Positions 40,564 to 62,247 of a DNA stretch of 64,000 nucleotides are shown in pieces. Origin of the DNA: an uncultured Acidobacteriota bacterium. GTDB taxonomy: Bacteria; Acidobacteriota; Thermoanaerobaculia; Gp7-AA8. Made by a program: the position numbers and the translations under genes. Every line of letters starts with the position of its first letter. Position 1 is the stretch's first letter. Where the stretch lies: contig CAWGHO010000002.1 of NCBI GenBank assembly GCA_963822445.1, positions 2,080,001 through 2,144,000 of the forward strand, in the 5' to 3' direction. The notes below the pieces were generated by a model, which worked only from the letters and a program-made list of their open reading frames with translations, did no database searches and was not told where the DNA came from.

Positions 40564-40753
40564 GCCTAACTTTGGTGTGAAGCCGACAGCGGGCCGTTTG
40601 CCGCGCCCGGCGGCCGAGCCGCCTCGCTCGTCCAAAAGCGCACGGCGTCACGCCGCTTGCATTCGCGCTGGTCATTAATCGGCGACAAGCGGCGTGCCGC
40701 TCTGCCCGCTCGCATGTGGGGCCTCGCTGCGGCTTACACCAAGCACGTTAGCC
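40564..40753 (+). repeat. attC 1 (190 bp; TTTGGTGTGAAGC/GCTTACACCAAG arm type)
   Basis: GCCTAAC ... GTTAGCC with paired L boxes and an extrahelical G. Confidence 0.9.
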
Positions 40754-40923
40754 GGACGGAACGGCCACGCGTCGCATTTGGCGCGGGCGAAGGAACGAAG
40801 GCGAAACGCGACGGCCGCAATCGTGACCGGAGCCGACCATGCTGCCCAGTTTATCGCCTGCGTCGCCACTCGACTATGACGAACCGGTCCGCCTGCTTGC
40901 AGCCGTCTGACGGAGGTGAACGA

Positions 40924-41307
40924 TCACAGCTTGGCCTTCTTGGGAAAAATTGTCACGTCGGGTAGGCCACTGAATCCGGAGTCGGTGGTTACGAGCGTAG
41001 CGTCGCTTTCGCGGGCGAATGCCAGCATCATCGAGTCAGCCATCGCCAAGCCGTGCTCAAGGCTCAGATCTGCCGCCGTCAGCGCAACTTCCTCGGTCAA
41101 ATTGACGACGACGGTCTTCTTCATGGTGGCCACGGCGTCGAGTGCCTCGTCCTCTGACCGTTCGCGCTTGATCCACTTGTAAACTTCGTAGATTGCGACG
41201 GTCGGAGTGATGACGTCCGCTGGGCGGCGCAACCTCGTCGCGAACTCCTCGGCGTGCGGACCATCCGCGAAAAACTCGATCCAACCCGAAGAGTCAATGA
41301 CTATCAA
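40924..41307 (-). CDS. vapC: Cassette 2: VapC PIN-domain toxin
   Basis: VIDSSGWIE, YEV, LAMADS and LVTTD acidic PIN residues. Confidence 0.92.
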   Translation of the reverse strand: MIVIDSSGWIEFFADGPHAEEFATRLRRPADVITPTVAIYEVYKWIKRERSEDEALDAVATMKKTVVVNLTEEVALTAADLSLEHGLAMADSMMLAFARESDATLVTTDSGFSGLPDVTIFPKKAKL

Positions 41308-41513
41308 AACCGATCCTTCTTTTCGCGGAAGCCGGTTGTGCGAATACCGCGAACGAACCCGCGCATTGACGAGATCGGTCTGTCGGGAACAAGCGTGACG
41401 CTGCCACCCTTAGCGATTACTTGAAACTCTTGCCCGACGCGAATCTTGGCGCGCTCCCGTACATCCTTCGGTATAACGACCTGATACTTTGACGATACTC
41501 TCGTTCGGGTCAT
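41304..41513 (-). CDS. vapB: Cassette 2: AbrB/MazE-type antitoxin
   Basis: VSSKYQVVIPKDVRE; 4-bp overlap with vapC; AAGGAG RBS. Confidence 0.9.
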   Translation of the reverse strand: MTRTRVSSKYQVVIPKDVRERAKIRVGQEFQVIAKGGSVTLVPDRPISSMRGFVRGIRTTGFREKKDRF

Positions 41514-41545
41514 TGCGGAACTCCTTCGCTGGATCGATCATCAGT

Positions 41546-41574
41546 ATCGTAAGACGCGGCGACAGCACTGTCAA
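41546..41574 (-). promoter_or_regulatory. Sigma70 promoter of vapBC with overlapping palindrome
   Basis: TTGACA-N17-TACGAT on the minus strand; GACAG-CA-CTGTC (41561-41572) overlaps the -35. Confidence 0.8.
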
Positions 41575-41605
41575 CGCCCGATTCACGTGTCTCATTTCGG
41601 CCGCC

Positions 41606-41804
41606 GGCTAACTACTGCCAGGAGCTGTCGGCGGGCCGTTTGCCGCGCCCGGCGCTGAAGCGCCTCGGTAAGCGTCGATTGGCCGGCGGCACGCCGGCCG
41701 ACATGCTCTCGCGCCGCTAGCCGCGGCGCGACCACTGCAGCCGTCGCGCCGCGCAACCGCTCGCACGCGGGGCCTCGCCGCAGCTCAGGCGATAGACGTT
41801 GGGC
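41606..41804 (+). repeat. attC 2 (199 bp)
   Basis: GGCTAAC-TACTGCCAGGAGCTG ... CAGCTCAGGCGATAGAC-GTTGGGC. Confidence 0.92.
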
Positions 41805-41889
41805 GGACCTGAAGCAACGAGTCGCCCCCTACAACGATACGGGGAGTGTTACGAAGAGAGTCCGTCGATTCGCGGTATGGTGCAGCGTC

Positions 41890-42782: not shown

Positions 42783-42983
42783 GCCCAACTACTGCCAGGA
42801 GCTGTCGGCGGGCCGTTCGCCGCGCCCGGCGCTGAAGCGCCTCGTTCAAGCTGGACTTGCCGGCGGCACGCCGGCCGACATGCTCTCGCGCCGCTGATCG
42901 CGGCGCGACTTGCTGCAGCCGTCGCGCCGCGCGAACCGCTCGCACGCGGGGCCTCGCCGCAGCTCAGGCGATAGACGTTAGGC
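42783..42983 (+). repeat. attC 3 (201 bp)
   Basis: GCCCAAC ... GTTAGGC; close copy of attC 2 and 7. Confidence 0.92.
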
Positions 42984-43830: not shown

Positions 43831-44019
43831 GCCTAACTACTGCCAGGAGCTGACAGCGGGCCGTTTACCGCGCCCGCCGGCCGAGCCGGCTCGGTCGATC
43901 CAAGACGCACGGCGTCACGCCGCGTGCAACCGCGTCAAACGGCAATCGGCGGCACGCGGCGTGCCGCATCGCCGCTCGTACGTGTGGCCTCGCTGCAGCT
44001 CAGGCGATAGACGTTAGCC
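43831..44019 (+). repeat. attC 4 (189 bp)
   Basis: GCCTAAC ... GTTAGCC with the same arms. Confidence 0.92.
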
Positions 44020-44067: not shown

Positions 44068-45105
44068 GTGGGTGACCTTTCCTCGTTCCGTGCGATCAAT
44101 ACGGCGGGTCTCGTCATTCCTAATCCTGCGGACGTTACGGCGCTCGCACTCCTCTTTGAAAAGACCTATCTGCCGCGGAATCTAGAAATCGTAAAGGAGG
44201 TAGCTCGGCGTTATCGCGTCGAGGTAGGACCTGATTGGCGGCCCGGCACGCTTAGAGCCGCCGACGGCGAGTCGATCGACCCCTTCGCGGATCTCAGCGA
44301 AGCCGAACGGCAAAACGCAAATGCATTTCTAATGGCAGGGTATAGATTTGCTCATCGGAATCACGAGTTGATCGGGCAGGTGTTTGAGACGGACGCCTTC
44401 GAAGGAGATGGCCCACTCGAAGTAACTCTCGTCGAGGAGGGCAAGAATGGTGCGTTAAACCTTTATCAGGTACGGGAACGCGCAATGTCGTTAACGTTGG
44501 ATGAGGATACCTTCGGCAGTCTTGTAGGTAAAGGCTATATCCCGATCGTTACGCATAGTCTTGGTGTAATGCCGCCAGTTGGTGATGCGAGCACCGCTCT
44601 TTCTGTAGCCGCGCTCCTGGCGATGCAAGCTGTGCGAATCGTTCTGCCGAGGACTAAGGCCGCGGCTCCAGGAGAGATCTTAGCGGCGCGCCATCGACTG
44701 CGCGATCATTTGCCACCTTTTTGGTCAGCAATGCTCAAGCTGTCTATTGAGTTGCGTGCCCGGATAAGAGACGTCAATAGCGAAACCAAGATGGCCGCTG
44801 AGGTGCGAGATTTAGTGGATACAACAGTTCGACCGGCGCTCATCGATTTGCAAACAAAGCTCGAGCGCGAGCGTAGACAATGGGCTTATCGAATTCTCGC
44901 GCCATTGCAAAAAGGTTTGCGTCTGATAATCGGTAATCCACCGATAAGCCAACAGCAGCTGATCACGACCGCGCTCGTTCTCGGCTCAGATGTTGCCATG
45001 AGCGCCGCAGAGCACATGCGCACGGTCGAGGCACTTAAGCAAGAGGCTGGTCTTACGTTTTTGTTAGAAACGCAGAAGGCGTTAGCCGAGTCCGACGCGG
45101 GCTAA
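44068..45105 (+). CDS. Cassette 5: hypothetical protein (weak DUF6236-like pattern)
   Basis: 345-aa ORF filling the cassette with its stop inside R''. ALLFEKTYLP and EILAARHRLRDHLPPF recall DUF6236-type proteins (by eye only). Confidence 0.7.
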   Translation: MGDLSSFRAINTAGLVIPNPADVTALALLFEKTYLPRNLEIVKEVARRYRVEVGPDWRPGTLRAADGESIDPFADLSEAERQNANAFLMAGYRFAHRNHELIGQVFETDAFEGDGPLEVTLVEEGKNGALNLYQVRERAMSLTLDEDTFGSLVGKGYIPIVTHSLGVMPPVGDASTALSVAALLAMQAVRIVLPRTKAAAPGEILAARHRLRDHLPPFWSAMLKLSIELRARIRDVNSETKMAAEVRDLVDTTVRPALIDLQTKLERERRQWAYRILAPLQKGLRLIIGNPPISQQQLITTALVLGSDVAMSAAEHMRTVEALKQEAGLTFLLETQKALAESDAG

Positions 45106-45295
45106 CTACTGCCAGCAGCGGACGGCGGGCCGTTCGTTGGCCCGGCGGCCGAGCCGCCTACAGCGCTCCGAGATGCACGGCGTCACGCCGCTTGCAGATC
45201 GCGCCCGCCGACATCTCGTTAGTTGCGGCAAGCGGCGCGCCGCTTCCCGGCTCGCGGCCGGGGCCTCGCCGCCGCTGAGGCGATAGACGTTAGGC
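45100..45295 (+). repeat. attC 5 (196 bp)
   Basis: GGCTAAC-TACTGCCAGCAGCGG ... CCGCTGAGGCGATAGAC-GTTAGGC (compensatory L boxes). Confidence 0.92.
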
Positions 45296-45490
45296 GCACC
45301 GTCTCGTGTTCGCATACTTCACTCGCCCCAAGCCGCTCTGCTGCCGCGTTCCCCGTTAAAAGTGTATTCTTAGCCAGCGAGCTCCGACCAGAGCGTCAGG
45401 TGACAGCTCAGTGTCCGGCAAACCGCGAACGTAACGCAGGCGTCGCGCTGCACGACGTGGCACTTCACGTATACTGGCCAATCGCAGGGC

Positions 45491-46105
45491 ATGGCACAAA
45501 AACGCCGCTCCCACCTAGTACGCCGAGGGCACGGAGTTGCTCCCGTGACGCAGCAGAACTGGGTCCCGCTTGATCCTCGTGAGTTACGCCGTCGGCGGTG
45601 GACGTGGATGATCAGCGATTTGCTCGTTGCGCTACTGGTGATGGCTGCGTCGCATTTAATGCGCAGCGACGTCGCTTTGGCGCAGAGAATACACGCGCAG
45701 ACGCCGCCAGCCGTACGTGAGGCGCTGGGGTATGTAATTCTATTCGCGACCGTCTCGCGCGTCTGCGAGGTTATGTTCAGCTTCAAGCGCGTCGTTCAGG
45801 ACGACGCGTATGCACTGCGGGTCTTCAAGCTCCTCGCATTTTGGGAAGCGGTACGCGCGACGGCGTTCCTTCTTCTCCTCATGTATGGAGCTGGCGTGAT
45901 TGGTGAGGTGGCTTCGCTATTACATCAATCCGCTACATTCTTGTCCGCGCGCGCGAGTTACTACGTGTCGGCGGTGGTTGGCTGGCTAATCTCCGGTGTT
46001 GTTGGTAATTTTGCATACGACTTTCTGAAGAGATTATTTCTTAGTCGACGTTCGCGATCAGACCGCGTGGCGCGGCTGAGGGCCTTGACGCTAAAGCGGC
46101 GGTGA
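45491..46105 (+). CDS. Cassette 6: hypothetical membrane protein
   Basis: About four TM helices; TATACT at 45470-45475 upstream. Confidence 0.65.
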   Translation: MAQKRRSHLVRRGHGVAPVTQQNWVPLDPRELRRRRWTWMISDLLVALLVMAASHLMRSDVALAQRIHAQTPPAVREALGYVILFATVSRVCEVMFSFKRVVQDDAYALRVFKLLAFWEAVRATAFLLLLMYGAGVIGEVASLLHQSATFLSARASYYVSAVVGWLISGVVGNFAYDFLKRLFLSRRSRSDRVARLRALTLKRR

Positions 46106-46170
46106 CGGAATCGTTATTTGGGAGCCGATCGCTACTATGCCGTTTGGACGAGTGCGAAAAGTCTTGAGGC

Positions 46171-46368
46171 GCCTAACTACTGCCAGGAGCTGTCGCGGCC
46201 CGGCTTCGGTCCGCCGGCCGAGCCGGCTGCTCTTTCGCCAGCGTGACGGCGTCACGGCGGTTGCAGTTCGCCACTCGCTGCATGGCAGTTCATTGGCGGC
46301 AACCGCCGCGCGCTCCGGCTTCGGCACGTGGGCCCTTGGCCGCGCAGCTCAGGCGATAGACGTTAGGT
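46171..46368 (+). repeat. attC 6 (198 bp)
   Basis: GCCTAAC ... GTTAGGT. Confidence 0.92.
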
Positions 46369-46391
46369 GGACCAGGGTAGAATCCCCATCG

Positions 46392-47186
46392 ATGGCAAGA
46401 ACTCCGCGGTGGGAAGCCAGACCGGCCAAAGACGGTGTCGGCGTTGTTCATTTATCGAAGTGGGGATATTTCGCAGATTTTATTCGCCAAGAGATGCTTA
46501 GTGCGCGGTCTTATATCTGGAGAGGGCAGGCGGCTGCGAAGTGGAAGCTCGAGTCTACCTTGGATCGGCTGCTCCGCCGACGAGGAAAACTGAAAGACCC
46601 AACGATCCGCGACCAGCATCTCAGGCGATTCAAGCTGTCGAGCCGGGGCCGTCGGGGTGCGAATCCAGCACAGCTCATCTCCGACAACGACTGGTGGGCT
46701 CTAGGACAGCACTTTGGCCTCGCAACTCCGTTACTGGACTGGACCACGTCTCCGTATGTTGCGGCGTATTTTGCATATGCCGCCGAGGACAACGATGGAG
46801 ACTCGCGCCGCGCTGTCTTTGCCTTAGGGCGTAAGTCGGTCACACAGAAGACTCTCGAGATTACGCGAACTGCCGATCCTGAAGCCGGCAGGCCGGACAT
46901 CGTGGAGTTTCTTGAACCACTGTCGGACGAGAACTCACGCCTCGTGAGTCAAGGAGGGCTGTTCACTAGAGCTCCTGACGCTTCTACGATCGAAGAGTGG
47001 GTAAGCGACAACTTTGTGGGTGATGTCGGCGTATGGCGCCTACTCAAGATAACGCTGCCTAGTGCGGACCGAAGCGTGGCGCTGCAAACTCTTAACCGGA
47101 TGAACATCAACCATCTCTCGCTGTTTCCTGATCTGTACGGTGCGTCCAAGTTTACAAATCTTGACCTCCTGATCGATAATTATTGA
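46392..47186 (+). CDS. Cassette 7: FRG-domain protein
   Basis: IWRGQ, GQHFGLATPLLDWTTSPYVAAYFA, SQGGLF and SLFPDLYG motifs; true start ATG 46392. Confidence 0.9.
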   Translation: MARTPRWEARPAKDGVGVVHLSKWGYFADFIRQEMLSARSYIWRGQAAAKWKLESTLDRLLRRRGKLKDPTIRDQHLRRFKLSSRGRRGANPAQLISDNDWWALGQHFGLATPLLDWTTSPYVAAYFAYAAEDNDGDSRRAVFALGRKSVTQKTLEITRTADPEAGRPDIVEFLEPLSDENSRLVSQGGLFTRAPDASTIEEWVSDNFVGDVGVWRLLKITLPSADRSVALQTLNRMNINHLSLFPDLYGASKFTNLDLLIDNY

Positions 47187-47203
47187 GCGCGATTTCGCGA
47201 GCC

Positions 47204-47402
47204 ACCTAACTACTGCCAGGAGCTGTCGGCGGGCCGTTTGCCGCGCCCGGCGCTGAAGCGCCTCGTGATGCCCCGATGGGCCGGCGGCACGCCGGCCGAC
47301 ATGCTCTCGCGCCGCTGGTCGCGGCGCGAACACTGCAGCCGTCGCGCCGCGCACCCGCTCGCACGGGGGGCCGCGCCGCAGCTCAGGCGATAGACGTTAG
47401 CC
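47204..47402 (+). repeat. attC 7 (199 bp)
   Basis: ACCTAAC ... GTTAGCC. Confidence 0.92.
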
Positions 47403-47707
47403 GCACGCCAATACCAGCGTCGTTGATGCTCCGTTCCAGGAACGGCCGCTATTTGGGGATGGTCTCCGTAAAAACCAAGTCTACGCATGTACAGCGCACT
47501 GGTAGGCGCAGCTGTCACCGCGCGTAATGCGGGTAGGGCGTAGGGGAACGCCGTATCAAAAGGTCGAAGCAGGATTCCGGAGAAGCAGGATGCACGGGCT
47601 GTCGGTCTAGACCGATCGTGCAACACTGGTCGCGCGTGACCGACGCACCGGTTCAGAGAGGCAAGCGGGAAAGCGCGAGTGCTAGCCTTCTGTCGTAAGC
47701 TGCCGGG

Positions 47708-49663: not shown

Positions 49664-49860
49664 GCCTAACTTTGGTGTGAAGCTGATGCGGCCCGGCTTC
49701 GGCCCGGCAGCCGAGCTGCCTGCTTCACCGCCAGCGTGACGGCGTCACGGCGGTTGCAGGTCGCCACTCGGTTCTTCGAACGTCATTGGCGGCAACCGCC
49801 GAGCCGCTCAGGCTTCGGCACGCGGGACCGGCCGCACAGCTTACACCAAGGAAGTTAGAC
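49664..49860 (+). repeat. attC 9 (197 bp; TTTGGTGTGAAGC arm type)
   Basis: GCCTAAC ... GTTAGAC; arms as in attC 1, interior as in attC 6/8. Confidence 0.92.
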
Positions 49861-49918: not shown

Positions 49919-51706
49919 ATGGCCTTGCCTATTCGGATCACAGGCGTCGACTTCCACAACTTCAAGGCGTTTCAGCAGTACTCGGTCACTCTTCATAATC
50001 TGAACATCATGGTTGGCCCGAACAACAGCGGGAAATCGACGATTCTGGGCAGCTTTCGTGTACTTGCGGAAGGTCTACGACGGGGTCGGAGCAAGACACC
50101 CGAATGGATAACTGCTCATGGGAAGCGTCAGCTTGGCTACACGATCCCAACGGACGCGATATCGATATCACTCGAAAACGTCCACACCAACTATTCCGAC
50201 GAGGACAGTTGGGTTAGGTTCCATCTCTCCAATGAGAACTCGCTCGATCTGTATTTCCCCCATGACGGAGGTTGCTATCTACTAACGAACAGCACAAATA
50301 AGTACGTTCGGACCAAGGCCGACTTCAAGAATGAGTTTCCCGTGACGGTCGTGCCCGTGCCGGTGCTTGGACCCGTCGAGCACGAAGAACAGGTCGTGGA
50401 ACGGGAAACCGTCCGAACTGGCCTGAACACCCATCGCGCCTCGCGCCACTTCCGCAACTATTGGTATCTCAATGACGACGGCTTCGATGACTTCGCGGCT
50501 CTAGTAGCGAGGACGTGGCCCGGAATGGAGATCGAAAGGCCGGAGCGGCCCGGCGCGATGGCACAATATCTCGTAATGTTCGCGCTGGAGAATCGCATTT
50601 CGCGCGAACTGTATTGGTCCGGGTTTGGCTTCCAGATCTGGTGTCAGCTGCTAACGCACATCTCGCGGGCGTCGGCCGACACCCTACTTGTCATTGACGA
50701 GCCTGAGATCTACCTTCACCCGGACGTTCAGCGGCAGCTCGTGTCCGTGCTGCGTGACGCCGGGCCGGACATTCTGGTTGCCACGCATTCGACAGAGATT
50801 ATGGGTGAAGCGGATCCATCCGAGATTCTTGTCGTTGACAAAACGAAGCGGTCGGCTCAACGACTTCGCAATGTAGAAGGCGTGCAAGCGGCGATGCGCA
50901 CGCTAGGCTCGCTTCAGAATTTTACGTTGGCACAACTAGCGAGGACGCGTCGAGTGGTTTTTGTCGAAGGGCTTTACGATCTCAAGATCGTTCGACGGTT
51001 TGCGCAGCGTCTTGGTCACGCTGATGTTGCGTCGGGGACACCTTTCACTCCGGTTGAGTCCGGGGGTCTCGGATCGTGGGAGCGCATTCGGGGAACCGCC
51101 TGGGGGATCGAGAAGGCGCTGGGTAGTACTCTGGCTGTAGCTGCCATATTCGATCGCGACTACATGTGTGAGGAAGAGGTCGCCGCGATGGAGGCTGACT
51201 TGGGTCAGCATCTTCGATTTGCGCACATACACGCTCGCAAGGAAATAGAGAACTACCTGCTTGTGTCGGCCGTTCTTCAACGAGCTTTGGTCCGAGCCGT
51301 CAAAGATCGCGCCGGCGACGGTGGTGCCAACGCAGTACCGCCCACGGCAATTCAGACTTTGCTTGACGAAATCACGGAGGCTGTGAAGACGGAAGTGCAG
51401 GCCCAGTACGTCGCCAGGCGATCGTCGTATCTGGCGCGCGACCGACGCGGTGCGGCAGCAATCGCTACGGAGACACTAAGGTGGTTTGAGGATCGCTGGC
51501 GCGACCTCGATCGTCGGCTCGGAATCGTACCCGGCAAGGACGTCTTGGGCACCTTGCGCGCAAAGGTGCAGGAGAAATGGGGTGTCAATCTTACTGATGT
51601 TCGGATCATTGGTGAGTTCAGACGCGATGAAGTTGCCCACGATATGGTTGCGTTGATTACCGCGTTGGAGTCTTACAAAGGTGGCAAGAAAGCGCACGGC
51701 GTCTAA
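49919..51706 (+). CDS. Cassette 10: ABC-type ATPase-TOPRIM protein (OLD/PARIS-like nuclease)
   Basis: GPNNSGKST, SGFG, IDEPEIYLHP and ATHS; TOPRIM motifs FVEGLYD, FDRD and KEIENYL; stop in R''. Confidence 0.88.
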   Translation: MALPIRITGVDFHNFKAFQQYSVTLHNLNIMVGPNNSGKSTILGSFRVLAEGLRRGRSKTPEWITAHGKRQLGYTIPTDAISISLENVHTNYSDEDSWVRFHLSNENSLDLYFPHDGGCYLLTNSTNKYVRTKADFKNEFPVTVVPVPVLGPVEHEEQVVERETVRTGLNTHRASRHFRNYWYLNDDGFDDFAALVARTWPGMEIERPERPGAMAQYLVMFALENRISRELYWSGFGFQIWCQLLTHISRASADTLLVIDEPEIYLHPDVQRQLVSVLRDAGPDILVATHSTEIMGEADPSEILVVDKTKRSAQRLRNVEGVQAAMRTLGSLQNFTLAQLARTRRVVFVEGLYDLKIVRRFAQRLGHADVASGTPFTPVESGGLGSWERIRGTAWGIEKALGSTLAVAAIFDRDYMCEEEVAAMEADLGQHLRFAHIHARKEIENYLLVSAVLQRALVRAVKDRAGDGGANAVPPTAIQTLLDEITEAVKTEVQAQYVARRSSYLARDRRGAAAIATETLRWFEDRWRDLDRRLGIVPGKDVLGTLRAKVQEKWGVNLTDVRIIGEFRRDEVAHDMVALITALESYKGGKKAHGV

Positions 51707-51897
51707 CTACTGCCAGAAGCTGGCACGGCCCGGCTTCGGTCCGGCGGCCGAGCCGCCTACATTCTTGCCAGCGTGACGGCGTCACGGCGGTTGCAGTTCG
51801 GCAGGCGTTACATGCAACTTCTCGCCGGCAACCGCCGCGCCGCTCGGGCTTCGGCACGTGGGCCCTGGCCGTGCAGCTTAGGCGATAGACGTTAGCC
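51701..51897 (+). repeat. attC 10 (197 bp)
   Basis: GTCTAAC ... GTTAGCC. Confidence 0.92.
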
Positions 51898-53120: not shown

Positions 53121-53317
53121 GGCTAACTACTGCCAGAAGCTGGCACGGCCCGGCTTCGGTCCGGCGGCCGAGCCACCTGCATAATCGCCAGCGGGACGGC
53201 GTCACGGCGGTTGCAGATCGGCAGGCGTTGCATGCAACTTCTCGCCGGCAACCGCCGCGCCGCTTCGGCTTCGGCACGTGGGCCCTGGCCGTGCAGCTTA
53301 GGCGATAGACGTTAGCC
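53121..53317 (+). repeat. attC 11 (197 bp)
   Basis: GGCTAAC ... GTTAGCC; near-identical to attC 10. Confidence 0.92.
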
Positions 53318-55127: not shown

Positions 55128-55316
55128 GGCTAACTACTGCCAGAAGCTGGCAGCGGGCCGTTCACCGCACCCGGCGGCCGAGCCGCCTACCTCGTCCCGA
55201 GACGCACGGCGTCACGCCGCTTGCAACCGCGCTAAAGTCAAATGCGGCAAGCGGCGTGCCGCGACTGCCCGCCGGCACGCGGGGCCTCGCTGCAGCTTAG
55301 GCGATAGACGTTGGGC
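55128..55316 (+). repeat. attC 12 (189 bp)
   Basis: GGCTAAC ... GTTGGGC. Confidence 0.92.
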
Positions 55317-55510
55317 CGACCTAAGTTCCGCGAACCTGGCGACTCGCCAGGAGGTGAAGCACACCAGCACGGCTCGGTGGGCGAGCGATCGAGCGCCGAC
55401 GGGACTAGCATCCTGTCGGCCGCAGGCCGATAACTCACGCCATCTGAGTCAGTTAGAAACAAACCTCGACCTCACACCAAAAATCGGCACCAGTACAAAC
55501 TCGCATCTGC

Positions 55511-55543
55511 TTGACACTGGTGTCGGGATGTCGTACAACATCT
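55511..55543 (+). promoter_or_regulatory. Putative promoter and operator of the DGQHR gene
   Basis: TTGACA-N17-TACAAC; near-palindrome GATGTCGTACAACATC covers the -10. Confidence 0.55.
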
Positions 55544-55635
55544 CCGCCTCACGTCCGGCTGATGAACCATCACACCTGTGATCCGCGGTCAACAGGCTCG
55601 AAGGTCAGGTCGGCAACCGGCAGAAAGGTCTCACT

Positions 55636-56796
55636 ATGAACGAAGTACTCGATCGTGCTGTCCCGTCTCGAACCATCGTCGAGATTGTTCCTGACAAGGT
55701 GTACTCCACTTGCATCACGCCGTCAGCTGTGGAAGTCGTTCTTTTCATCTCTACTTACGATACCCAGGACCCGAAGTCGCCCGCTATTAATCAGCATGGA
55801 TACCAGCGGCCTCCCACGGCCACGCGGTTCCCTGAGATTGCTCAGTATTACCGCACTGCAAACAATAGCGATCGGATCCCGCCGCTGCTCATTTCAGTGC
55901 GTCTCAGTGAGCCTGACGAAATCGCGGAGTTTCTCGAACTTTTAGAAGCTGGCTCGTTCGAACGCATCCACGAGCAATTCGGTTCGGATGTCATGAGCGT
56001 CATTGACGGTCAGCACAGAATGCGTGGGCTCACCTACGCCTGGCGACAGGATCCTGCGTTTTCTCCCCCCATTCCGTTGATACTCTATTTCGGTCTTTCA
56101 TTTTCGGAAGAAGCGGAATTGTTCAACACGATCAATGCGACTCAGCGCAAGCTGCCGAAGGCATTGATTGAAACAACTCGTGGCGACATCACCGAAGTGT
56201 CTGACCTAGGGTACTCGCAGTTGATCAGGCGGGTTGCGTTCAGTCTGTGCCGTGATCCGGACTCACCATGGGGTCCGATTGACGGGCAAGAACAAATCAA
56301 CATGACCGGAGTCCGCGACCCGAACCGATCGGTGACCTACGAAGGTCTTCGGCGGTCAACGTCACACATGTTCCCGAGCACGCTACTCGAGCGACTCCGG
56401 AATATCGATCCGAATCTTCCGACGAGTCTTGCAAAGCGCTACTGGAAGGCAGTAAGCGAGGCCTGCACAGAAGCGTGGTCTGGTGAACCATCCGAGATGG
56501 AAGTCATCGATCCGGAGACTGGCGATGCTGTAGTAGTCCCCATCAAGTATCGCCTTAAGGATCTTGTTGGCGTTGCGGCTCTCTCCAAACTCGGTGCGAA
56601 CATCATCCAATCGCAGATCGACGGTAACCAGGCGAACCGACTGGAACAGCTCGCAGCGAAGCTGGCCGACGTCAACTGGGCCAAGGACGCCGCAAACCCG
56701 TGGATGCGTAGCCAGGCCGGTTTTGCGGGCCAGAAGGACTTGTATGAGATGTTATACAGGCTCGTTTATATGGATGAGCGCCCCGACGATAGGTAA
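55636..56796 (+). CDS. Cassette 13: DGQHR-domain (DndB/DpdB, ParB-like) protein
   Basis: GYQR, VIDGQHR and EAELFNTINATQRKL motifs; GAAAGG RBS. Confidence 0.9.
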   Translation: MNEVLDRAVPSRTIVEIVPDKVYSTCITPSAVEVVLFISTYDTQDPKSPAINQHGYQRPPTATRFPEIAQYYRTANNSDRIPPLLISVRLSEPDEIAEFLELLEAGSFERIHEQFGSDVMSVIDGQHRMRGLTYAWRQDPAFSPPIPLILYFGLSFSEEAELFNTINATQRKLPKALIETTRGDITEVSDLGYSQLIRRVAFSLCRDPDSPWGPIDGQEQINMTGVRDPNRSVTYEGLRRSTSHMFPSTLLERLRNIDPNLPTSLAKRYWKAVSEACTEAWSGEPSEMEVIDPETGDAVVVPIKYRLKDLVGVAALSKLGANIIQSQIDGNQANRLEQLAAKLADVNWAKDAANPWMRSQAGFAGQKDLYEMLYRLVYMDERPDDR

Positions 56797-56863
56797 TTAA
56801 ACACAGCCGCGGCTGCACAAGGGGCCGCGGCGTCTCGTCGCAAGAGGATATGTGCCCTCGGCG

Positions 56864-57062
56864 GCCCAACTACTGCCAGCACCTGTCGGCGGGCCGTTCG
56901 CCGCGCCCGGCGGCCGAGCCGCCTGCACCACTCCGAGACGCACGGCGTCACGCCGCTTGCAGATCGCGCCCGCCGACTGAATCGTTAGTTGCGGCAAGCG
57001 CCGCGCCGCTTCCGTCGCTCGCACTCGGGGCCTCGCCGCAGGTGAGGCGATAGACGTTAGCC
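56864..57062 (+). repeat. attC 13 (199 bp)
   Basis: GCCCAAC-TACTGCCAGCACCTG ... CAGGTGAGGCGATAGAC-GTTAGCC. Confidence 0.92.
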
Positions 57063-57097
57063 AGACGAAGGCGAATCATGAGAGTTACAATAACGCC

Positions 57098-58423
57098 GTG
57101 GACTTCGCGCGGCAACTCATCGAATTGCTTATCGGGTACGCCGTGCGCTGGCGTACGCGCGGCGGCTTTTTACGAATTGCGGTTGTACTCATTGCAGGAA
57201 CGGCGGTAGTTGCACGCAGCGTCCCGGTCTCTATCATCGTTACTGTGTACGCGTGCGCGGTAGTCGTTGTGTTGTGGGTGGTGATATGGGCCATTGGGTC
57301 GGGCCGGATCCCGATCCCGCGAACCGGCACTACCGTCGTCTTTGCCGTCGATGTGGACGTTGAGGCGGAAAGGAACTTTAGACGCATCTTCGCGATGCTG
57401 AAGACTGAGATCGATTCGCTAGAGCTCACCCAGCCGATCAGGCTACGCCGAATCGCGTCCGACCTAGTGGATAGTAAGCGCGCCGCGGCGGAATACTCAA
57501 AGAACTTCGTGGTGGACCAGGTTGTCTGGGGGACGGCCTTGGCTGGCAAGATTCACAACGAGAAGATTCAGAGCTTTGATATTCGCTATCATCACCGCGT
57601 GTCGGAAGAGCTCGGCCTCGACATTAAGCGTGTAATGGCAGACGTGAAAACGCTTGCATATGGTCGCACATGGAACATAAGAGAAGTAGAGGAGTTGATC
57701 GATGTCCGCGTAGTAGCCGAGGACTTCCTCGAGTTGTCGCTCGGCATTATCGGAATTATGCTCTTTGTCACGGATCAATTGGAGGACGCTGCTGTTGTGT
57801 TCGCCAGGGTGGTCGTCGGACTTGAGCGTCATGCCGGCTTGAACCCTACTGCTGAGCGTCATAGGCAAATCGATCGATTTCGAGAACTCCTGTCCGACGT
57901 GCGCATAACGCTGGCCGTTCAGGCACACGACCGTGATAACCACGAGCAGGCGATCGCGCTTCTCCGCGCTGTCCTTGCGAAAGCTCCTAACGATTTGAAC
58001 GCGCTTACGCTCATGGCGCGCTGCTATTATTATCTGGACAACCGCGCGCGGGCGATTGCCTATACCGAACAGATCCGCAATATTGATCCCCAAAACCCCG
58101 TCGCGCTGTCGAATCTCGCCTTCTTCGCTCTTCTGCAAAAGGACTACGAACGCGCAGGCCAGTGGTATGACGAGTTCATGGCGTCTGACGACGAGAACGC
58201 AGATTATGTCGCATCATCGGCGTCCGAATTTCTGGAGGAGAGGTTCGACGAGAACCCAACCGAGTATGGGTATCTTTACGCGCTCGCAATTCTCAACGAC
58301 CGAACAGATAGTTCACTGATGTGCAGCGATCTCGCGGGTTTCGTCCGAGCGACGGAGGGTGATGCAGCTTACGAACCGTTAAGAACGCGTGCAAAAGCGT
58401 TGCTGGCCAAGAACGCTGGCTAA
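57098..58423 (+). CDS. Cassette 14: two-TM protein with C-terminal TPR repeats
   Basis: Two N-terminal hydrophobic helices; TPR patterns (AIALLRAVLAKAPND, ALSNLAFFALLQKDYERA); stop in R''. Confidence 0.8.
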   Translation: MDFARQLIELLIGYAVRWRTRGGFLRIAVVLIAGTAVVARSVPVSIIVTVYACAVVVVLWVVIWAIGSGRIPIPRTGTTVVFAVDVDVEAERNFRRIFAMLKTEIDSLELTQPIRLRRIASDLVDSKRAAAEYSKNFVVDQVVWGTALAGKIHNEKIQSFDIRYHHRVSEELGLDIKRVMADVKTLAYGRTWNIREVEELIDVRVVAEDFLELSLGIIGIMLFVTDQLEDAAVVFARVVVGLERHAGLNPTAERHRQIDRFRELLSDVRITLAVQAHDRDNHEQAIALLRAVLAKAPNDLNALTLMARCYYYLDNRARAIAYTEQIRNIDPQNPVALSNLAFFALLQKDYERAGQWYDEFMASDDENADYVASSASEFLEERFDENPTEYGYLYALAILNDRTDSSLMCSDLAGFVRATEGDAAYEPLRTRAKALLAKNAG

Positions 58424-58616
58424 CTACTGCCAGCACCTGTCGGCGGGCCGTTCGCCGCGCCCAGCGGCCGAGCCGCCTAGACCGCTCCGAGACGCACGGC
58501 GTCACACCGCTTGCAGATCGCGCCCGCCGACTGAGTCGTTAGTTGCGGCAAGCGGCGCGCCGCTTGTGCCGCTCGCACTCGGGGCCTCGCCGCAGGTGAG
58601 GCGATAGACGTTAGGC
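58418..58616 (+). repeat. attC 14 (199 bp)
   Basis: GGCTAAC ... GTTAGGC; near-identical to attC 13 and 17. Confidence 0.92.
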
Positions 58617-58659
58617 GCACGAAAAACAGGGTAGACGTACAATAGCGGCCCTCGGCACC

Positions 58660-59715
58660 ATGGGAAAGAGAATTCTGTTTCAGGGCAGCTACGCTCCTCA
58701 CCGAGGGAAGCGGAGCGAGACGCCCGCGCATCTGCGCATAGCGGAAGAGATCTCTGCGCCGCTCGGCGAAGCTTTGATCGCGGCGGGTTTCGACCTGATT
58801 TTTACAGGGACGAACGTTCTTGAAAAGGTCATCGGAAATGCCGCGCTCGCCGCGTGTAAGCGATTCGGCGAGAACCCTCGCGAACGCGTTCGCACCTACT
58901 TGAGTGATCCCTCGGCCGGTGGCTTCGGTATGGTGTTGGAAGCGATAGGGGATTCGCGCCAAGACGTTCGAACATTCATCGTTCGCGAAGCAGACGCTTT
59001 GATCGCGCTAATCGGCGGAAAAGGAACGCGTGACTGCATTCAGAAGGCCGAGTTGGCTGGGAAACCGCTTTTCCCCATCGCTGTCGCTGGAGGAGGCGCA
59101 CTGGCGGAGTGGCTGCGGCTGAAACGAGAGGGATACCGGCACCGAAACGCGGGGGATATCGACTTTCTGGCTGATCACGGCGCGGCGCCTGGCGATCTTG
59201 CCTCGGCGATAGTTCATCGCTGCAAAGATCTCTTCGCGCCGGCAAGGCCGCGCGTGTCAAACCGCGTCTTTGTTGTTCATGGCCATGATGCAGAACTCAG
59301 GCTCGAGCTGACACGCATGCTGGATAAGCTCGGGCTAGTGCCCGTGATTCTCGGCGAACAGCCAGACCGAGGTCGGACGGTGTTAGGCAAGCTGGTCGAC
59401 GAACTCGCTGACGTCGGCTACGGCATTGTGTTATTGACGCCCGACGACGCAGGACGGAGGAAGGATGCCCGTCGAACGCAACCGCGCGCGCGCCAGAATG
59501 TAATCTTTGAGCACGGCTGGTTGATAGGTGCGCTCGGTACACAACGCGTCTGCGCGATAGTCAAGGGCGGCGTTGAAATTCCGTCTGACCTCGCCGGCGT
59601 CGTTTACAAGAACATTCCTGAGGGTAAAGGCGTCGACGCCATTGCGATCCACATCGTGCAAGAGCTCAAGTCAGCCGGCTACGCAGTCGATGCGAACAAG
59701 CTCCTCGGCGCCTAA
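58660..59715 (+). CDS. Cassette 15: SLOG domain fused to a Cap12/PycTIR-type TIR domain
   Basis: SLOG: R..IVREADALIALIGGKGT..C...A...GKPLFPI. TIR: VFVVHGHD, LLTPDD, RARQNVIFEHG and EIPSDLAGVVY. Stop in R''. Confidence 0.85.
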   Translation: MGKRILFQGSYAPHRGKRSETPAHLRIAEEISAPLGEALIAAGFDLIFTGTNVLEKVIGNAALAACKRFGENPRERVRTYLSDPSAGGFGMVLEAIGDSRQDVRTFIVREADALIALIGGKGTRDCIQKAELAGKPLFPIAVAGGGALAEWLRLKREGYRHRNAGDIDFLADHGAAPGDLASAIVHRCKDLFAPARPRVSNRVFVVHGHDAELRLELTRMLDKLGLVPVILGEQPDRGRTVLGKLVDELADVGYGIVLLTPDDAGRRKDARRTQPRARQNVIFEHGWLIGALGTQRVCAIVKGGVEIPSDLAGVVYKNIPEGKGVDAIAIHIVQELKSAGYAVDANKLLGA

Positions 59716-59896
59716 CTACTGCCCGCAGCTGTCAGCGGCCCGTTTGCCGCGCTCGGGGCTGAAGCCCCTCGATCCATCCGAGATCCACGGCGGCACGCCG
59801 CTCGCAGATCGGTCGACGTCAATCGCGGCGAGCGGCGCGCCGCTCTGCCCGCACGCGCGTGGGGGCTCGCTGCAGCTGAGGCGACAGACGTTAGGC
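59710..59896 (+). repeat. attC 15 (187 bp)
   Basis: GCCTAAC ... GTTAGGC; divergent interior but same fold. Confidence 0.9.
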
Positions 59897-59914
59897 GGAT
59901 TACAATATCCGGCC

Positions 59915-60973
59915 ATGGCAACGAAAAGGCACTCGCGACCACCGATGGCTGGCGAATCCGCTCCCACTCCGCCAAGCACTTCGAAGCCAGCCGCACCCTC
60001 AAGCGAGTCAGTTCCTTCTGAGGGCGCTGCCGGATCCCCCGCGCCAGACGTCGCCGCAGGCGAGCCCGACCCCGTAGCTGCGGAACCATCACCGACACCG
60101 GAAGTGTCGTGGCCAACCCTGATCAACGAGGGTACCGAATCGGAAATACGTGGCCGCTTCATCAACGAGGTCAACGACATCATAGCGAAAAGCGACGACC
60201 TGGCCGAGTCAGCGATTCTCGCAATCTTGCGTCCGGACGACAGCATCAACGCGTTCGATCTCGATCAAATCTACGAAGCGTTCATGGACCTTGATCCAGA
60301 TAAATACAAGAACGTCGTCTTGATCCTAATCAGTCGCGGCGGCGAAATCGAGCCAGCGTACCAAATCAGCAAACTATGCAAGACGTTTGCGCGTCAACAC
60401 AAGTTTCTCGTCGTCGTTCCACGTCAGGCCAAATCGGCAGCCACGCTGATTGCACTCGGGGCCGATGAAATTCACATGGGTCCCTTGGGTCAACTCGGAC
60501 CAATCGACCCTCAGATCGGTGGTCTTCCAGCACTTGGCGTATCACAAGCATTGCAAACGATAGCATCACTCGTGCAGCAATACCCGAAGAGTGCAGACAT
60601 GTTTGCCCAGTACCTCAGATTGGCCGTAAAGGTGGAGCACATCGGATATAGCGACCGCGTCACGGCGTCTGCCGTACAGTATGCAGAACGGTTACTATCA
60701 TCGAAGGCGCATCTAACGGCACGAATCCCTGAAATTGCAAAACACCTCGTTTACGCATACAAGGATCATAGCTTCGTCATTGACGCGGAAGAATCACAAC
60801 GGTTACTTGGCACTGAATTGATCAAAATGTGGTCGGCGCTTGAAGGCGCAGCTGAGCAAATCTATTCCGTATTCGATTGGGTCAATCTCTGGTTGCCGTC
60901 GTCTCCGAAAAAGAAGCGTCTTGTTGTTACGGGCGCGTTCAATTGGAATGGTGTGCTGCTGTTCCGCGCGTAA
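59915..60973 (+). CDS. Cassette 16: ClpP/SDH-fold serine protease with a Pro/Ser-rich disordered N-terminus
   Basis: LISRGG, AKSAATLIALGADEIHMG, LGPIDPQ and YKDHSFVID motifs; true start ATG 59915. Confidence 0.85.
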   Translation: MATKRHSRPPMAGESAPTPPSTSKPAAPSSESVPSEGAAGSPAPDVAAGEPDPVAAEPSPTPEVSWPTLINEGTESEIRGRFINEVNDIIAKSDDLAESAILAILRPDDSINAFDLDQIYEAFMDLDPDKYKNVVLILISRGGEIEPAYQISKLCKTFARQHKFLVVVPRQAKSAATLIALGADEIHMGPLGQLGPIDPQIGGLPALGVSQALQTIASLVQQYPKSADMFAQYLRLAVKVEHIGYSDRVTASAVQYAERLLSSKAHLTARIPEIAKHLVYAYKDHSFVIDAEESQRLLGTELIKMWSALEGAAEQIYSVFDWVNLWLPSSPKKKRLVVTGAFNWNGVLLFRA

Positions 60974-60975
60974 CC

Positions 60976-61162
60976 GCCTAACTACTGCCAGAAGCTGGCG
61001 GCGGGCCGTTCGCCGCGCCCGGCGGCCGAGCCGCCTACTCGGTCCCGAGATGCGCGGCGTCACGCCGCTTGCAACCGCGTAAACGTCAAATGCGGCAAGC
61101 GGCGTGCCGCTCTGCCCGCCTGCGCGCGGGGCCTCGCCGCAGCTTAGGCGATAACGTTAGGC
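60976..61162 (+). repeat. attC 16 (187 bp)
   Basis: GCCTAAC ... GTTAGGC; right spacer is 1 nt shorter (GATAAC). Confidence 0.9.
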
Positions 61163-61244
61163 GCACGCAAGAAGCAGTTCCGGGCTTCCGACCGATCTTG
61201 ACGACGTCGTGCCGCAGCAACAGAGCGCATGCTAACGTGGACGC

Positions 61245-62054
61245 ATGATTCTTCTCTACGCTCAAGGCGGTTCGCGAGAGTTCGAGGTGTGTTCTGAGAG
61301 TGCGATCGCACACGACTGGGAAATCATGCGAGAGGCTGCGTGCGAATTCCTCGACAACTCGTCTCAGCGCAATGTCGCCGAGATTCTTCGTCGACTGCCG
61401 TTCTACCCGTACAACGCCAGAAACCCTTTCGGCGATGAGTTTCAGCTCATCCTTGCGAAAGTTGGTGCCGCAGAGTACGCACAGCTATCGTCGCGCATGT
61501 CTGACGACGCATGGAGGACGGACTTCACCTCTGCCGGTAAAGCTCTCCAAACAGTGGGCTTTCCGGTCCGGTTGATTGCCGTCGAGCTCAAGGTTCAACC
61601 AGACGTTTCGGTAGTTAATCGCCCTAAACCAATCGTCACGAGTAGTACCGTGGAACGGGCTCTTCACGACGCGGAGTTGTTGCTCCGAAGTGCGGGTGCA
61701 ACAAGCGCGGTCGATCGTGCTCATACCGCTCTTCACGGGTACCTGAAGGAGCTTTGCGATCGCTCTCAACTGGCTTACACCAAAGATCCTGGCGTAGCCG
61801 AACTCTTCAAACTGCTCCGCGAGAAGCACCCGGCGTTCTCGGAGCCGATCACGCACGATGAAGAAGTGACGCGAATACTTCGCGCGCTTGCGACAGTTCT
61901 CGACTCGGCTAACACACTTCGGAACCGAGCAAGTGTCGCGCACGCAAACGCGGCATTACTCGAAGAGGCTGAAGCCATGTTGGTAATCAACGCGGCGCGA
62001 ACATTTCTCCACTACATTGATGCGAAGGCCGCGTCGCCTGGTGCCGGCGCCTAA
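61245..62054 (+). CDS. Cassette 17: abortive infection family protein (Abi_C / AbiJ-like HEPN-type C-terminus)
   Basis: SAVDRAHTALHGYL, LRNRASVAH (Rx4-6H) and EAMLVINA motifs; stop in R''. Confidence 0.85.
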   Translation: MILLYAQGGSREFEVCSESAIAHDWEIMREAACEFLDNSSQRNVAEILRRLPFYPYNARNPFGDEFQLILAKVGAAEYAQLSSRMSDDAWRTDFTSAGKALQTVGFPVRLIAVELKVQPDVSVVNRPKPIVTSSTVERALHDAELLLRSAGATSAVDRAHTALHGYLKELCDRSQLAYTKDPGVAELFKLLREKHPAFSEPITHDEEVTRILRALATVLDSANTLRNRASVAHANAALLEEAEAMLVINAARTFLHYIDAKAASPGAGA

Positions 62055-62247
62055 CTACTGCCAGCACCTGTCGGCGGGCCGTTCGCCGCGCCCGGCGGCC
62101 GAGCCGCCTAGACCGCTCCGAGACGCACGGCGTCACGCCGCTTGCAGATCGCGCCCGCCGACTGAATCGTTAGTTGCGGCAAGCGGCGCGCCGCTTGCGC
62201 CGCTCGCACTCGGGGCCTCGCCGCAGGTGAGGCGATAGACGTTAGCC
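62049..62247 (+). repeat. attC 17 (199 bp)
   Basis: GCCTAAC ... GTTAGCC. Confidence 0.92.

What the first reader, a model, noticed from the sequence alone, without database searches (positions are those of the whole stretch)
40564..62247. Integron built entirely on giant (187-201 bp) attC sites with a conserved, covarying branched interior
Seen: all 17 attC sites measure 187-201 bp, although they fall into several divergent sequence subfamilies. Inside the L boxes they share a short hairpin whose stem covaries (GGCGGC-CGA-GCCGCC, GCCGGC-CGA-GCCGGC, GGCAGC-CGA-GCTGCC, GGCGC-TGAA-GCGCC, GGGGC-TGAA-GCCCC). Most also share a bulged long hairpin (CGGCGTCACGCCGCTTGC...GCAAGCGGCG versus CGGCGTCACGGCGGTTGC...GCAACCGCCG). 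Known: attC sites are usually given as 57-141 bp, and the variable terminal structure is regarded as poorly constrained, with long ones lowering cruciform-driven recombination. Inference: narrow length plus compensatory pairing implies selection on the interior, for example a host-factor platform, an RNA processing/termination element, or an excision brake. This may be an under-detected attC class.
Basis: partly seen in the sequence, partly recalled or inferred. Interest (0 to 1): 0.85.

Follow-up and report, generated by a model that had tools for sequence, protein, structure and literature searches.

The report
Giant structured attC sites, chromosomal integron
A soil bacterium's chromosomal integron uses recombination sites about 197 bases long, far longer than usual, whose extra interior folds into two conserved hairpins that seem to be kept for a reason still unknown.

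Summary
All 17 repeats are attC sites of 187-201 nt at the stated coordinates. They lie downstream of an intact integron integrase. The array runs beyond the window: 87 sites over about 107 kb. In 80 of 84 adjacent pairs the R'' box complements the previous site's R' box, the footprint of integrase crossover. Each site is a canonical attC core plus a 120-130 nt interior: a short hairpin A and a long hairpin B. On 150 sites from 18 genomes, 92.1% of cells pair and 24 of 39 pairs carry double changes. Wobble usage favours the bottom DNA strand over the sense RNA. T-tract terminators are absent. Shuffling the interior does not change the predicted R/L pairing. Hairpin B has conserved unpaired bases and also occurs outside attC sites. 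The class was found only in one bacterial family among those searched. I read it as a new length and structure variant of attC. The role of the interior is inferred, not shown.

The parts
38092..39057 (+). intI, integron integrase (321 aa), on the same strand as the cassettes
   Evidence: TIGR02249 scores 456.8 bits against a cut-off of 265. Pfam finds Phage_integrase and SAM_4. The protein aligns to residues 13-318 of VchIntIA (PDB 2A3V) with E 2e-93, including the integron-specific insertion. It is the only match over the cut-off in the genome.
39405..39411 (+). Probable attI crossover point and start of the first cassette
   Evidence: A GTTRRRY match lies here (sequence). It is the exact reverse complement of the R'' box of the first attC. 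This is the same rule that holds in 80 of 84 later junctions. Inferred, not shown.
40564..40753 (+). attC 1, 190 nt; hairpin B at 40643-40700
   Evidence: (179.7 bits)
41606..41804 (+). attC 2, 199 nt; subfamily with two short hairpins in place of hairpin B
   Evidence: 152.3 bits
42783..42983 (+). attC 3, 201 nt; same subfamily as attC 2; weak hairpin-B match at 42861-42930
   Evidence: 158.6 bits; 34 bits
43831..44019 (+). attC 4, 189 nt; hairpin B at 43910-43967
45100..45295 (+). attC 5, 196 nt; hairpin B at 45178-45243
46171..46368 (+). attC 6, 198 nt; hairpin B at 46247-46313
47204..47402 (+). attC 7, 199 nt; same subfamily as attC 2
   Evidence: 148.1 bits
48272..48469 (+). attC 8, 198 nt; hairpin B at 48348-48415
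49664..49860 (+). attC 9, 197 nt, with a different L-box and spacer sequence; hairpin B at 49740-49807
51701..51897 (+). attC 10, 197 nt; hairpin B at 51777-51843
53121..53317 (+). attC 11, 197 nt; hairpin B at 53197-53263
55128..55316 (+). attC 12, 189 nt; hairpin B at 55207-55262
56864..57062 (+). attC 13, 199 nt; hairpin B at 56943-57009
58418..58616 (+). attC 14, 199 nt; hairpin B at 58497-58563
59710..59896 (+). attC 15, 187 nt; hairpin B at 59788-59843
60976..61162 (+). attC 16, 187 nt; hairpin B at 61055-61110
62049..62247 (+). attC 17, 199 nt; hairpin B at 62128-62194; last site in the window, the array goes on
   Evidence: (205.7 bits); continuation

Best explanation
What is shown.
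- These are the attC recombination sites of a large sedentary chromosomal integron: one intI, a probable attI, and 87 cassettes over about 107 kb.
- The sites form a family-specific class. Each has a canonical core: the R''/R' boxes, an unpaired spacer, L boxes with extra bases on one arm, and a G+C-rich stem extension.
- The core encloses a 120-130 nt interior. The interior is not a loose loop. It folds into branches of its own: a 4-6 bp hairpin A with a 3- or 4-nt loop, and a hairpin B of about 17 bp.
- Hairpin B has a conserved 3 x 3 internal loop (TCA opposite CGC) and a variable tip.
- The integrase has cut and joined these sites at the canonical position.
- The interior pairs best in the bottom DNA strand, which is the strand that integron integrases recombine.

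What is inferred.
- The interior is kept as a structured single-stranded DNA module, not for the equilibrium pairing of the R and L boxes.
- Hairpin B is most likely a docking site for a lineage-specific protein. In addition, or instead, it may be a self-folding scaffold.
- Such a scaffold would confine recombination to moments when the DNA is single-stranded. That would keep a very long array stable.
For: Identity as attC sites.
- intI scores 456.8 bits on TIGR02249 and aligns with VchIntIA over its full length.
- There are 17 of 17 sites in the window and 87 in the array, all with R''/R' boxes and all 187-201 nt.
- R'' complements the previous site's R' in 80 of 84 adjacent pairs. Among the 55 informative pairs, 52 match the previous site and 2 match the site's own R'.

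Structure.
- Mean pair probabilities in the bottom strand are 0.7-0.98 for the R and L stems and about 0.8 for the upper stem of hairpin B.
- On 150 sites from 18 genomes, 92.1% of cells pair, against 81.2% in shuffles and 25-55% when the partner is slid. 24 of 39 pairs have changes on both sides.
- On a MAFFT alignment that was not fitted to any structure, the main helix of hairpin B is 95.5% paired. 12 of its 16 pairs have double changes.
- There are 14 distinct perfectly complementary upper stems in hairpin B, and at least 8 in hairpin A.
- The four core pairs of hairpin A are all Watson-Crick in 84 of 86 sites of this array and in 61 of 64 sites of other genomes. Hairpin B has at least 13 of 14 pairs in 66 of 86 and in 62 of 64.

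Strand.
- In hairpin B, A.C cells in the top strand (G.T in the bottom strand) number 50. G.T cells in the top strand number 10.
- One internal-loop position is A.C in 111 of 150 sites and A-T in 35.
- The bottom strand folds 2.3 kcal/mol better on average.

Recognition rather than mere foldability.
- The unpaired bases of the hairpin-B loop are at least 90% conserved among 82 sites that are less than 90% identical to each other.
- Hairpin B also occurs 16 times outside attC sites in this genome, with different, still complementary lower stems.
- It occurs in tandem arrays in five other genomes that I looked at.
- Native and interior-shuffled sites have the same predicted R/L pairing. 261 of 540 shuffles reach the native value.

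Literature.
- Passages state that a long terminal structure lowers recombination by up to 4 logs in replicating DNA, but not when the DNA is delivered single-stranded.
Against: - No experiment, no RNA data and no candidate protein is in hand.
- Compensatory-looking changes in DNA palindromes can arise by template switching without selection (my own knowledge, from no call).
- The 150-site alignment was fitted to a model that already held most of these pairs, which inflates the pairing figures. The shuffle control ignores relatedness.
- The interior is only moderately more stable than shuffles: median z is -2.30, and 25 of 40 sites fall below -2.
- One subfamily (3 of 17 sites in the window; 19 of 86 array sites with 12 of 14 pairs) replaces hairpin B with two other hairpins. 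So no single fold is obligatory.
- The equilibrium folding test says nothing about folding kinetics or cruciform extrusion.
- Short derivatives of 75-142 nt exist elsewhere in the genome. This shows that the core alone has attC form. It could mean that the interior is dispensable.
Confidence: 0.55

Rival explanations
1. Inherited baggage. An ancestral short attC gained about 120 nt, by insertion or duplication, and every later cassette copied it. The hairpins persist, and seem to covary, because imperfect palindromes are corrected by template switching. There is no function of its own.
For: - Sites of one chromosomal array are normally alike, and here mean column identity is 76%.
- A 75-nt site and sites of 106-142 nt elsewhere in the genome have the same core without the interior.
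- One subfamily has a 9-nt direct repeat on both sides of the interior, which resembles an insertion scar.
- The interior does not alter the predicted R/L pairing.
Against: - The length is held at 175-201 nt in 150 sites from at least five genera.
- The mismatches of the hairpin-B internal loop are conserved rather than corrected (118 and 111 of 150 sites).
- Unpaired bases are at least 90% conserved.
- The module recurs in other contexts.
- The direct repeat is not general. Within-site matches average 6.75 of 9, against 6.27 between sites.
Confidence: 0.2
2. Kinetic folding aid or brake only. The local hairpins nucleate or delay folding and resist single-strand binding protein. They tune the excision rate without any dedicated partner.
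For: - The folds are very stable: mean -64 kcal/mol in the bottom strand.
- The 3- and 4-nt loops suit nucleation.
- Literature passages describe the effects of terminal-structure length and of SSB (listing, 64).
- The array is long and apparently stable, with 87 cassettes.
Against: - This does not explain why specific unpaired bases are conserved.
- It does not explain why hairpin B is reused outside attC sites.
- Shuffled interiors fold nearly as well: median z is only -2.30.
Confidence: 0.3
3. An RNA element on cassette transcripts, acting in processing, termination or translation control.
For: - The sense strand would carry stable hairpins with tetraloop-like loops.
- Cassettes are co-oriented with the sites.
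Against: - Wobble pairs favour the bottom strand 50 to 10 in hairpin B.
- Terminator-like sites are not enriched (20 found, 19.4 +/- 4.9 expected). Only one of them is a hairpin A.
- There is no Rfam match at gathering score, and one chance-level match at E 0.15.
Confidence: 0.08
4. Not attC sites at all, but a REP- or MITE-type dispersed repeat that happens to lie next to an integrase gene.
For: Copies exist at other loci on all three contigs.
Against: - 87 of the 99 full-length copies form one co-oriented array that starts 350 nt after intI.
- The boxes follow the cassette rule in 80 of 84 junctions.
- The same model finds ordinary attC sites of 58-145 nt downstream of related integrases in 15 of 80 loci.
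Confidence: 0.02

Closest known systems
Vibrio cholerae repeats (VCR) and other attC families of sedentary chromosomal integrons
   Same: - One lineage-specific, fairly uniform attC family fills a very large chromosomal array.
- The terminal structure is long and branched (passage).
- The cassette junction rule holds.
   Different: - VCR-type sites measure 120-129 bp (passage). These measure 187-201.
- The interior here consists of two separate hairpins with conserved loops.
- One of those hairpins also occurs outside attC sites.
- intI is co-oriented with the cassettes.
attC sites of mobile integrons (for example attCaadA7)
   Same: The R''/R' boxes, L boxes with extra bases, an unpaired spacer, and a bottom strand that folds better by about 2 kcal/mol (2.3 here; 2.12 in the passage).
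   Different: Length is 56-141 bp, mostly under 100 bp, with a terminal loop as short as 3 nt. Here the core alone is about 65-75 nt and the interior adds 120-130 nt.
Integrons with the integrase gene in the same orientation as the cassettes (Treponema and others)
   Same: intI and the cassettes share a strand. In most of the 15 related loci with matches, the attC sites also lie downstream on the integrase strand. Long Treponema sites of 115-132 bp are reported (passage).
   Different: No site above 145 nt was seen among the integrase relatives or in that paper's passage.
Clusters of attC sites lacking an integrase (CALIN)
   Same: Small groups of the same giant sites lie at C2:480-494 kb, C3:1334-1357 kb, C1:1228-1232 kb and elsewhere, with no integron integrase nearby.
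   Different: These are side products. The finding itself is a complete integron.

Membership tests
Integron attC site | Lies in a co-oriented array next to an integron integrase that carries the integron-specific insertion | tested here: met
   the array starts 350 nt after the intI stop codon
Integron attC site | Inverted core sites R'' (RYYYAAC) and R' (GTTRRRY) at the two ends (consensus recalled from the literature) | tested here: met
   17 of 17 sites in the window. 99 of 100 full-length copies in the genome have both boxes by regular expression. R pairs are 95.7% paired.
Integron attC site | L''/L' boxes with extrahelical bases and an unpaired central spacer, which give strand asymmetry | tested here: met
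   The L and extension helix is 99.3% paired, with 9 of 11 pairs showing double changes. The arms are unequal beside the L box, and the spacers are unpaired in the folds. The bottom strand is favoured by 2.3 kcal/mol. All of this is in silico only.
Integron attC site | Cassette rule: each R'' pairs with the R' end left by the previous site, showing crossover at G|TT | tested here: met
   80 of 84 adjacent pairs. Among 55 informative pairs, 52 match the previous site and 2 match the site's own R'.
Integron attC site | Length within the described range (56/57-141 bp) | tested here: not met
   187-201 nt in 87 of 87 array sites. The range comes from the passages.
Integron attC site | Recombined by IntI as folded bottom strand in vivo | not testable with these tools
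   Only the historical footprint is available.
REP / MITE dispersed repeat | Scattered through the genome, independent of an integrase, with terminal inverted repeats and target duplications | tested here: not met
   87 of 99 full-length copies lie in one array. A flanking direct repeat occurs in only some subfamilies.
Intrinsic transcription terminator | G+C-rich hairpin followed by a T tract | tested here: not met
   20 terminator-like sites against 19.4 +/- 4.9 expected. One of them is a hairpin A.
Any curated RNA family (Rfam 15) | Match at the family's gathering score | tested here: not met
   0 matches in the window. One match at E 0.15 in positions 55000-62400.

The most novel reading that the evidence does not exclude
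Hairpin B is a portable recognition module for single-stranded DNA. It has covarying stems and a fixed internal loop. A factor specific to this bacterial family reads it. The same module marks attC interiors, attC-like hairpins inside cassettes, and tandem arrays upstream of variable genes. It could link attC folding, cassette excision or even cassette formation to that factor. Alternatively, it could be a small mobile hairpin that settled in the tips of attC sites more than once.
Probability: 0.2. Interest if true: 0.8.

Novelty: new variant of a known kind. Interest (0 to 1): 0.6.

Why it matters
The terminal structure of attC sites is treated as variable and loosely constrained. Long ones are seen as a handicap for recombination.

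Here a whole bacterial family keeps a 120-130 nt interior of fixed size and fold across at least five genera. It does so in an array of 87 cassettes, many of which resemble anti-phage defence genes.

If the interior has a partner or sets the folding pathway, it is a natural handle on an open question: how large chromosomal arrays stay stable yet usable.

There is also a practical side. These sites sit at or above the size limit of common attC finders (a limit of 200 nt, recalled from memory). Integrons of this lineage may therefore be missed or truncated in surveys.

Tried and rejected
- **Equilibrium folding.** For 45 of 82 representative sites I shuffled the interior 12 times each. 261 of 540 shuffles reached the native probability of R/L pairing, and the native value exceeded the shuffled median in 22 of 45. 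Two values above 1 are numerical artefacts of the constraint. So 'the interior protects R/L pairing' is rejected at equilibrium.
- **Replication orientation.** GC skew per 50 kb is weak and noisy on all three contigs. No conclusion.
- **Expression.** No RNA holder was listed. The one DNA run held a 0.07 share of the words. I did not lay any reads.
- **Plasmids.** No match for one giant site.
- **Rfam.** Nothing.
- **Insertion scar.** The flanking direct repeat is clear in one subfamily. Over 36 representatives, within-site matches (6.75 of 9) barely exceed between-site matches (6.27).
- **Small cassettes.** The 12 short cassettes share no nucleotide similarity with the 8 cassettes that hold an internal hairpin-B element.
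- **Loose pattern search.** A loose regular expression for hairpin B gave mostly noise: 180 hits outside attC sites. The covariance model replaced it.
- **Genes next to the tandem hairpin-B arrays.** 10 proteins were scanned. Two had matches with clear E-values (HATPase_c and DUF5677), and a third had only a marginal hit below Pfam's cut-off (E 5e-4). No common partner emerged.
- **Literature.** Five searches surfaced no report of attC sites of this size or fold. This is no proof of absence.
- **What I saw of each paper.**
  - Loot 2017 (PMC5371416): passages.
  - Richard 2022 (PMC8946536): passages.
  - Wu 2013 (PMC3607928): passages.
  - Ghaly 2021 (PMC8352920): passages and section 12.
  - Cury 2016 and Neron 2022: the searched terms gave nothing on attC size.
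  - The defence-biobank preprint (10.1101/2024.07.02.601686) and Bouvier 2009: search listing only.
- **Supplements.** Ghaly 2021 built an Acidobacteria attC model, and its supplementary tables might already list such lengths.
- **Not attempted.** Structure prediction, complex prediction, the search for homologous proteins and the atlas search. No step needed them.
- **Unpublished genomes.** The tallies include G002 and G025. Without them the genus count is 30 of 32. I used none of their sequence. Locus L020 was fetched automatically and never read.

Full report
**What is there.**
- The window holds an integron integrase gene at 38092-39057 on the + strand.
  - It scores 456.8 bits on TIGR02249, against a cut-off of 265.
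  - It aligns with residues 13-318 of the Vibrio cholerae integrase structure 2A3V (E 2e-93), including the integron-specific insertion and the catalytic motifs.
  - It is the only such gene in the 6.0-Mb genome.
- About 350 nt downstream lies a GTTRRRY match at 39405-39411. It is the exact complement of the R'' box of the first repeat, so I take it as the attI crossover point.
- From 40564 to 62247 there are 17 repeats of 187-201 nt. Each starts with an R''-type box and ends with an R'-type box.
- A covariance model of the 17 repeats scores them at 148-206 bits. The next best match in the window scores 20.8 bits.

**The array is much larger than the window.**
- The window is G000:C2:2080001-2144000.
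- A profile search of the genome gave 100 full-length copies. 99 of them have both boxes. One was bounded 8 nt too early and was corrected later.
- 87 copies form one array from C2:2120564 to 2226593. 86 are on the + strand and one is inverted. All are 187-201 nt.
- Twelve further full-length copies (174-199 nt) and several shorter derivatives (75-142 nt) lie in small groups elsewhere.
- Genes of the alpha-amylase family flank the array on both sides. Transposase genes lie within it and just beyond its end.

**They are real, used recombination sites.**
- In 80 of 84 adjacent same-strand pairs, the R'' box of a site is the perfect reverse complement of the R' box of the previous site.
- Where the previous R' and the site's own R' differ (55 pairs), 52 match the previous one and 2 match the site's own.
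- This is what integrase crossover at the canonical position leaves behind.

**Anatomy.**
- The outer part is a normal attC core:
  - R boxes, 95.7% paired;
  - an unpaired spacer;
  - L boxes and a stem extension, 99.3% paired, with 9 of 11 pairs showing double changes;
  - arms of unequal length beside the L box.
- A solitary 75-nt copy at C3:373393-373467 consists of this core closed by a small loop.
- The interior of 119-132 nt holds hairpin A and hairpin B.
  - Hairpin A has 4-6 G+C pairs and a loop of CGA or TGAA.
  - Hairpin B has three lower pairs, a 3 x 3 internal loop whose middle pair forms, ten upper pairs, and a variable tip.
- The folds of three representative bottom strands are branched.
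- One subfamily (3 of 17 sites in the window) has two short perfect hairpins in place of hairpin B.

**Covariation.**
- Alignment A4 keeps the best 150 of 156 matches: 86 array sites, and 64 sites from 20 loci of 17 other genomes.
  - 92.1% of cells pair. Shuffles give 81.2%, and sliding the partner gives 25-55%.
  - 24 of 39 pairs have changes on both sides. Two pairs that I had added to hairpin A proved false.
  - A4 was fitted to a model, which favours pairing.
- The MAFFT alignment A5 of 52 hairpin-B modules was not fitted to any structure.
  - Its main helix is 95.5% paired, and 12 of 16 pairs have double changes.
  - Its covariation score is 0.265, against at most 0.122 when the partner is slid.
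- There are 14 distinct perfectly complementary upper stems of hairpin B, and at least 8 of hairpin A.

**Which strand, and which constraint.**
- Non-Watson-Crick cells in hairpin B are mostly A.C in the top strand, which is G.T in the bottom strand: 50 such cells, against 10 G.T cells in the top strand.
- One internal-loop position is A.C in 111 of 150 sites and A-T in 35.
- The bottom strand folds better by 2.3 kcal/mol on average. Loot 2017 reports nearly the same figure for mobile attC sites (passage).
- Terminator-like sites are not enriched.
- These results argue for bottom-strand DNA and against the sense RNA.
- Shuffling the interior leaves the predicted R/L pairing unchanged. So the interior is not needed for equilibrium folding of the core.
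- The interior is only moderately more stable than shuffles: median z is -2.30.
- The unpaired bases of the hairpin-B loop and the ends of its stem are at least 90% conserved among 82 sites that are less than 90% identical to each other.

**Hairpin B outside attC sites.**
- A model of hairpin B finds 106 matches in the genome, 16 of them outside attC sites.
- Eight of the 16 lie inside cassettes of the array.
  - There they form the upper part of palindromes of about 110 nt.
  - The outer arms of these palindromes resemble R boxes but have A where the crossover G should be.
- The other eight lie at C1:504.4-508.7 kb, in tandem at about 130-nt spacing, next to a decayed attC-like sequence.
- Similar tandem arrays stand upstream of unrelated, mostly unannotated genes in five other genomes that I looked at.
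- In these copies the lower stem differs but still pairs.

**Distribution.**
- The giant class was found in 32 of 34 genomes of the same genus. This is 30 of 32 without the two unpublished genomes.
- It was found in 1 of 2 other genera of the family, and in 0 of 24 genomes of other families of the class.
- In a phylum sample it was found in 3 of 4 further genera of the family. Among the other 146 genomes, 4 gave single weak matches of 77-124 nt.
- The hairpin-B model matched 13 of 18 family genomes. It matched 2 of 62 genomes of other families, both weakly.
- The integrases closest to this one come from Thermoanaerobaculia and Acidobacteria assemblies, at 71% identity at best.
- In 15 of those 80 loci the model finds attC sites of 58-145 nt, and none longer.
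- These are samples. 'Not found in those searched' is all that can be said.

**Cassette content.** I scanned 23 frames of this stretch of the window against Pfam, four of them around intI before the first attC. Matches include:
- an Mrr-type restriction endonuclease;
- two AAA_21/AAA_15 ATPases;
- DndB;
- a CAP12/Pycsar-type TIR protein;
- Abi_C;
- an SDH-type protease;
- an FRG domain;
- a PIN toxin;
- a glyoxalase on the opposite strand;
- a GntR regulator.

This fits the reported role of chromosomal integrons as stores of defence genes. I saw that preprint only as a search listing.

**Reading.**
- The sites are a new length and structure variant of attC, not a new kind of element.
- The interior is constrained on the recombined strand. 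It is not explained by core folding, termination or any curated RNA family.
- Conserved loops with covarying stems, and reuse of the module elsewhere, make a protein partner the best-supported idea. A purely kinetic role and neutral inheritance with palindrome correction remain open.
- Nothing here shows function directly.

Noticed in passing
G000:C2:2119405-2226593 (window 39405 onward): The integron is about 107 kb long with 87 attC sites. It sits between alpha-amylase-family genes on both sides: a trehalose synthase/maltokinase-like gene at window 34711-37974, and two amylase-family genes after the array.
   Followed up: partly
window 44068-62054: Many cassettes encode proteins that resemble anti-phage defence: Mrr_cat, AAA_21/AAA_15 (twice), DndB, a CAP12/Pycsar TIR, Abi_C, an SDH protease, and an FRG domain. 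A PIN toxin lies at 40924-41307 on the - strand. Cassettes are 1.0-2.0 kb, longer than the medians quoted for chromosomal integrons.
   Followed up: partly
G000:C2:2155131-2223280 (outside the window): Twelve copies of a cassette of about 480-490 bp with no convincing open frame. Each has its own attC subfamily of 189-191 nt with different L-box and spacer letters. Up to three copies stand in a row.
   Followed up: partly
G000:C2:2150402, 2158118, 2164141, 2169098, 2188894, 2199483, 2202033, 2218308: Eight cassette-internal palindromes of about 110 nt are built around hairpin B. Their outer arms look like R boxes, but the R'-like arm starts with A instead of the crossover G. They may be dead or variant attC sites.
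   Followed up: partly
L126 (G000:C1:504435-508661, - strand); also L136, L137, L138, L139, L140: Tandem arrays of two to five hairpin-B modules, spaced about 125-136 nt (340 nt in one genome). They lie upstream of variable, mostly unannotated genes in at least six genomes of the family. In this genome a 30-nt motif repeated three times precedes them.
   Followed up: partly
window 46171-46368, 48272-48469, 49664-49860, 51701-51897, 53121-53317; G000:C3:373393-373467: In one attC subfamily the interior is flanked by the same 9-nt word on both sides. The solitary 75-nt site holds that word once. This could be an insertion scar, or a deletion between the repeats.
   Followed up: partly
window 39406-40753: The first cassette carries a glyoxalase-family gene on the opposite strand (39542-40048) and a GntR-type regulator on the + strand (40028-40402).
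   Followed up: no
G000:C2:2205449-2205647 and L123:19354-19956, L125:3877-4839: One attC site of the array is inverted. Transposase genes (rve domain) lie within the array and just after it. Two TIR-domain genes lie near them.
   Followed up: no
G000:C2:480934-493881, C3:1333651-1357416, C1:1228037-1231767, C1:99350-100825, C3:159384-160316, C2:54293-54976: Small clusters of the same attC type lie far from intI. Some copies are truncated to 106-142 nt.
   Followed up: partly
window 40001-64000: The array has lower G+C (0.57-0.62) than the genome (0.64).
   Followed up: no
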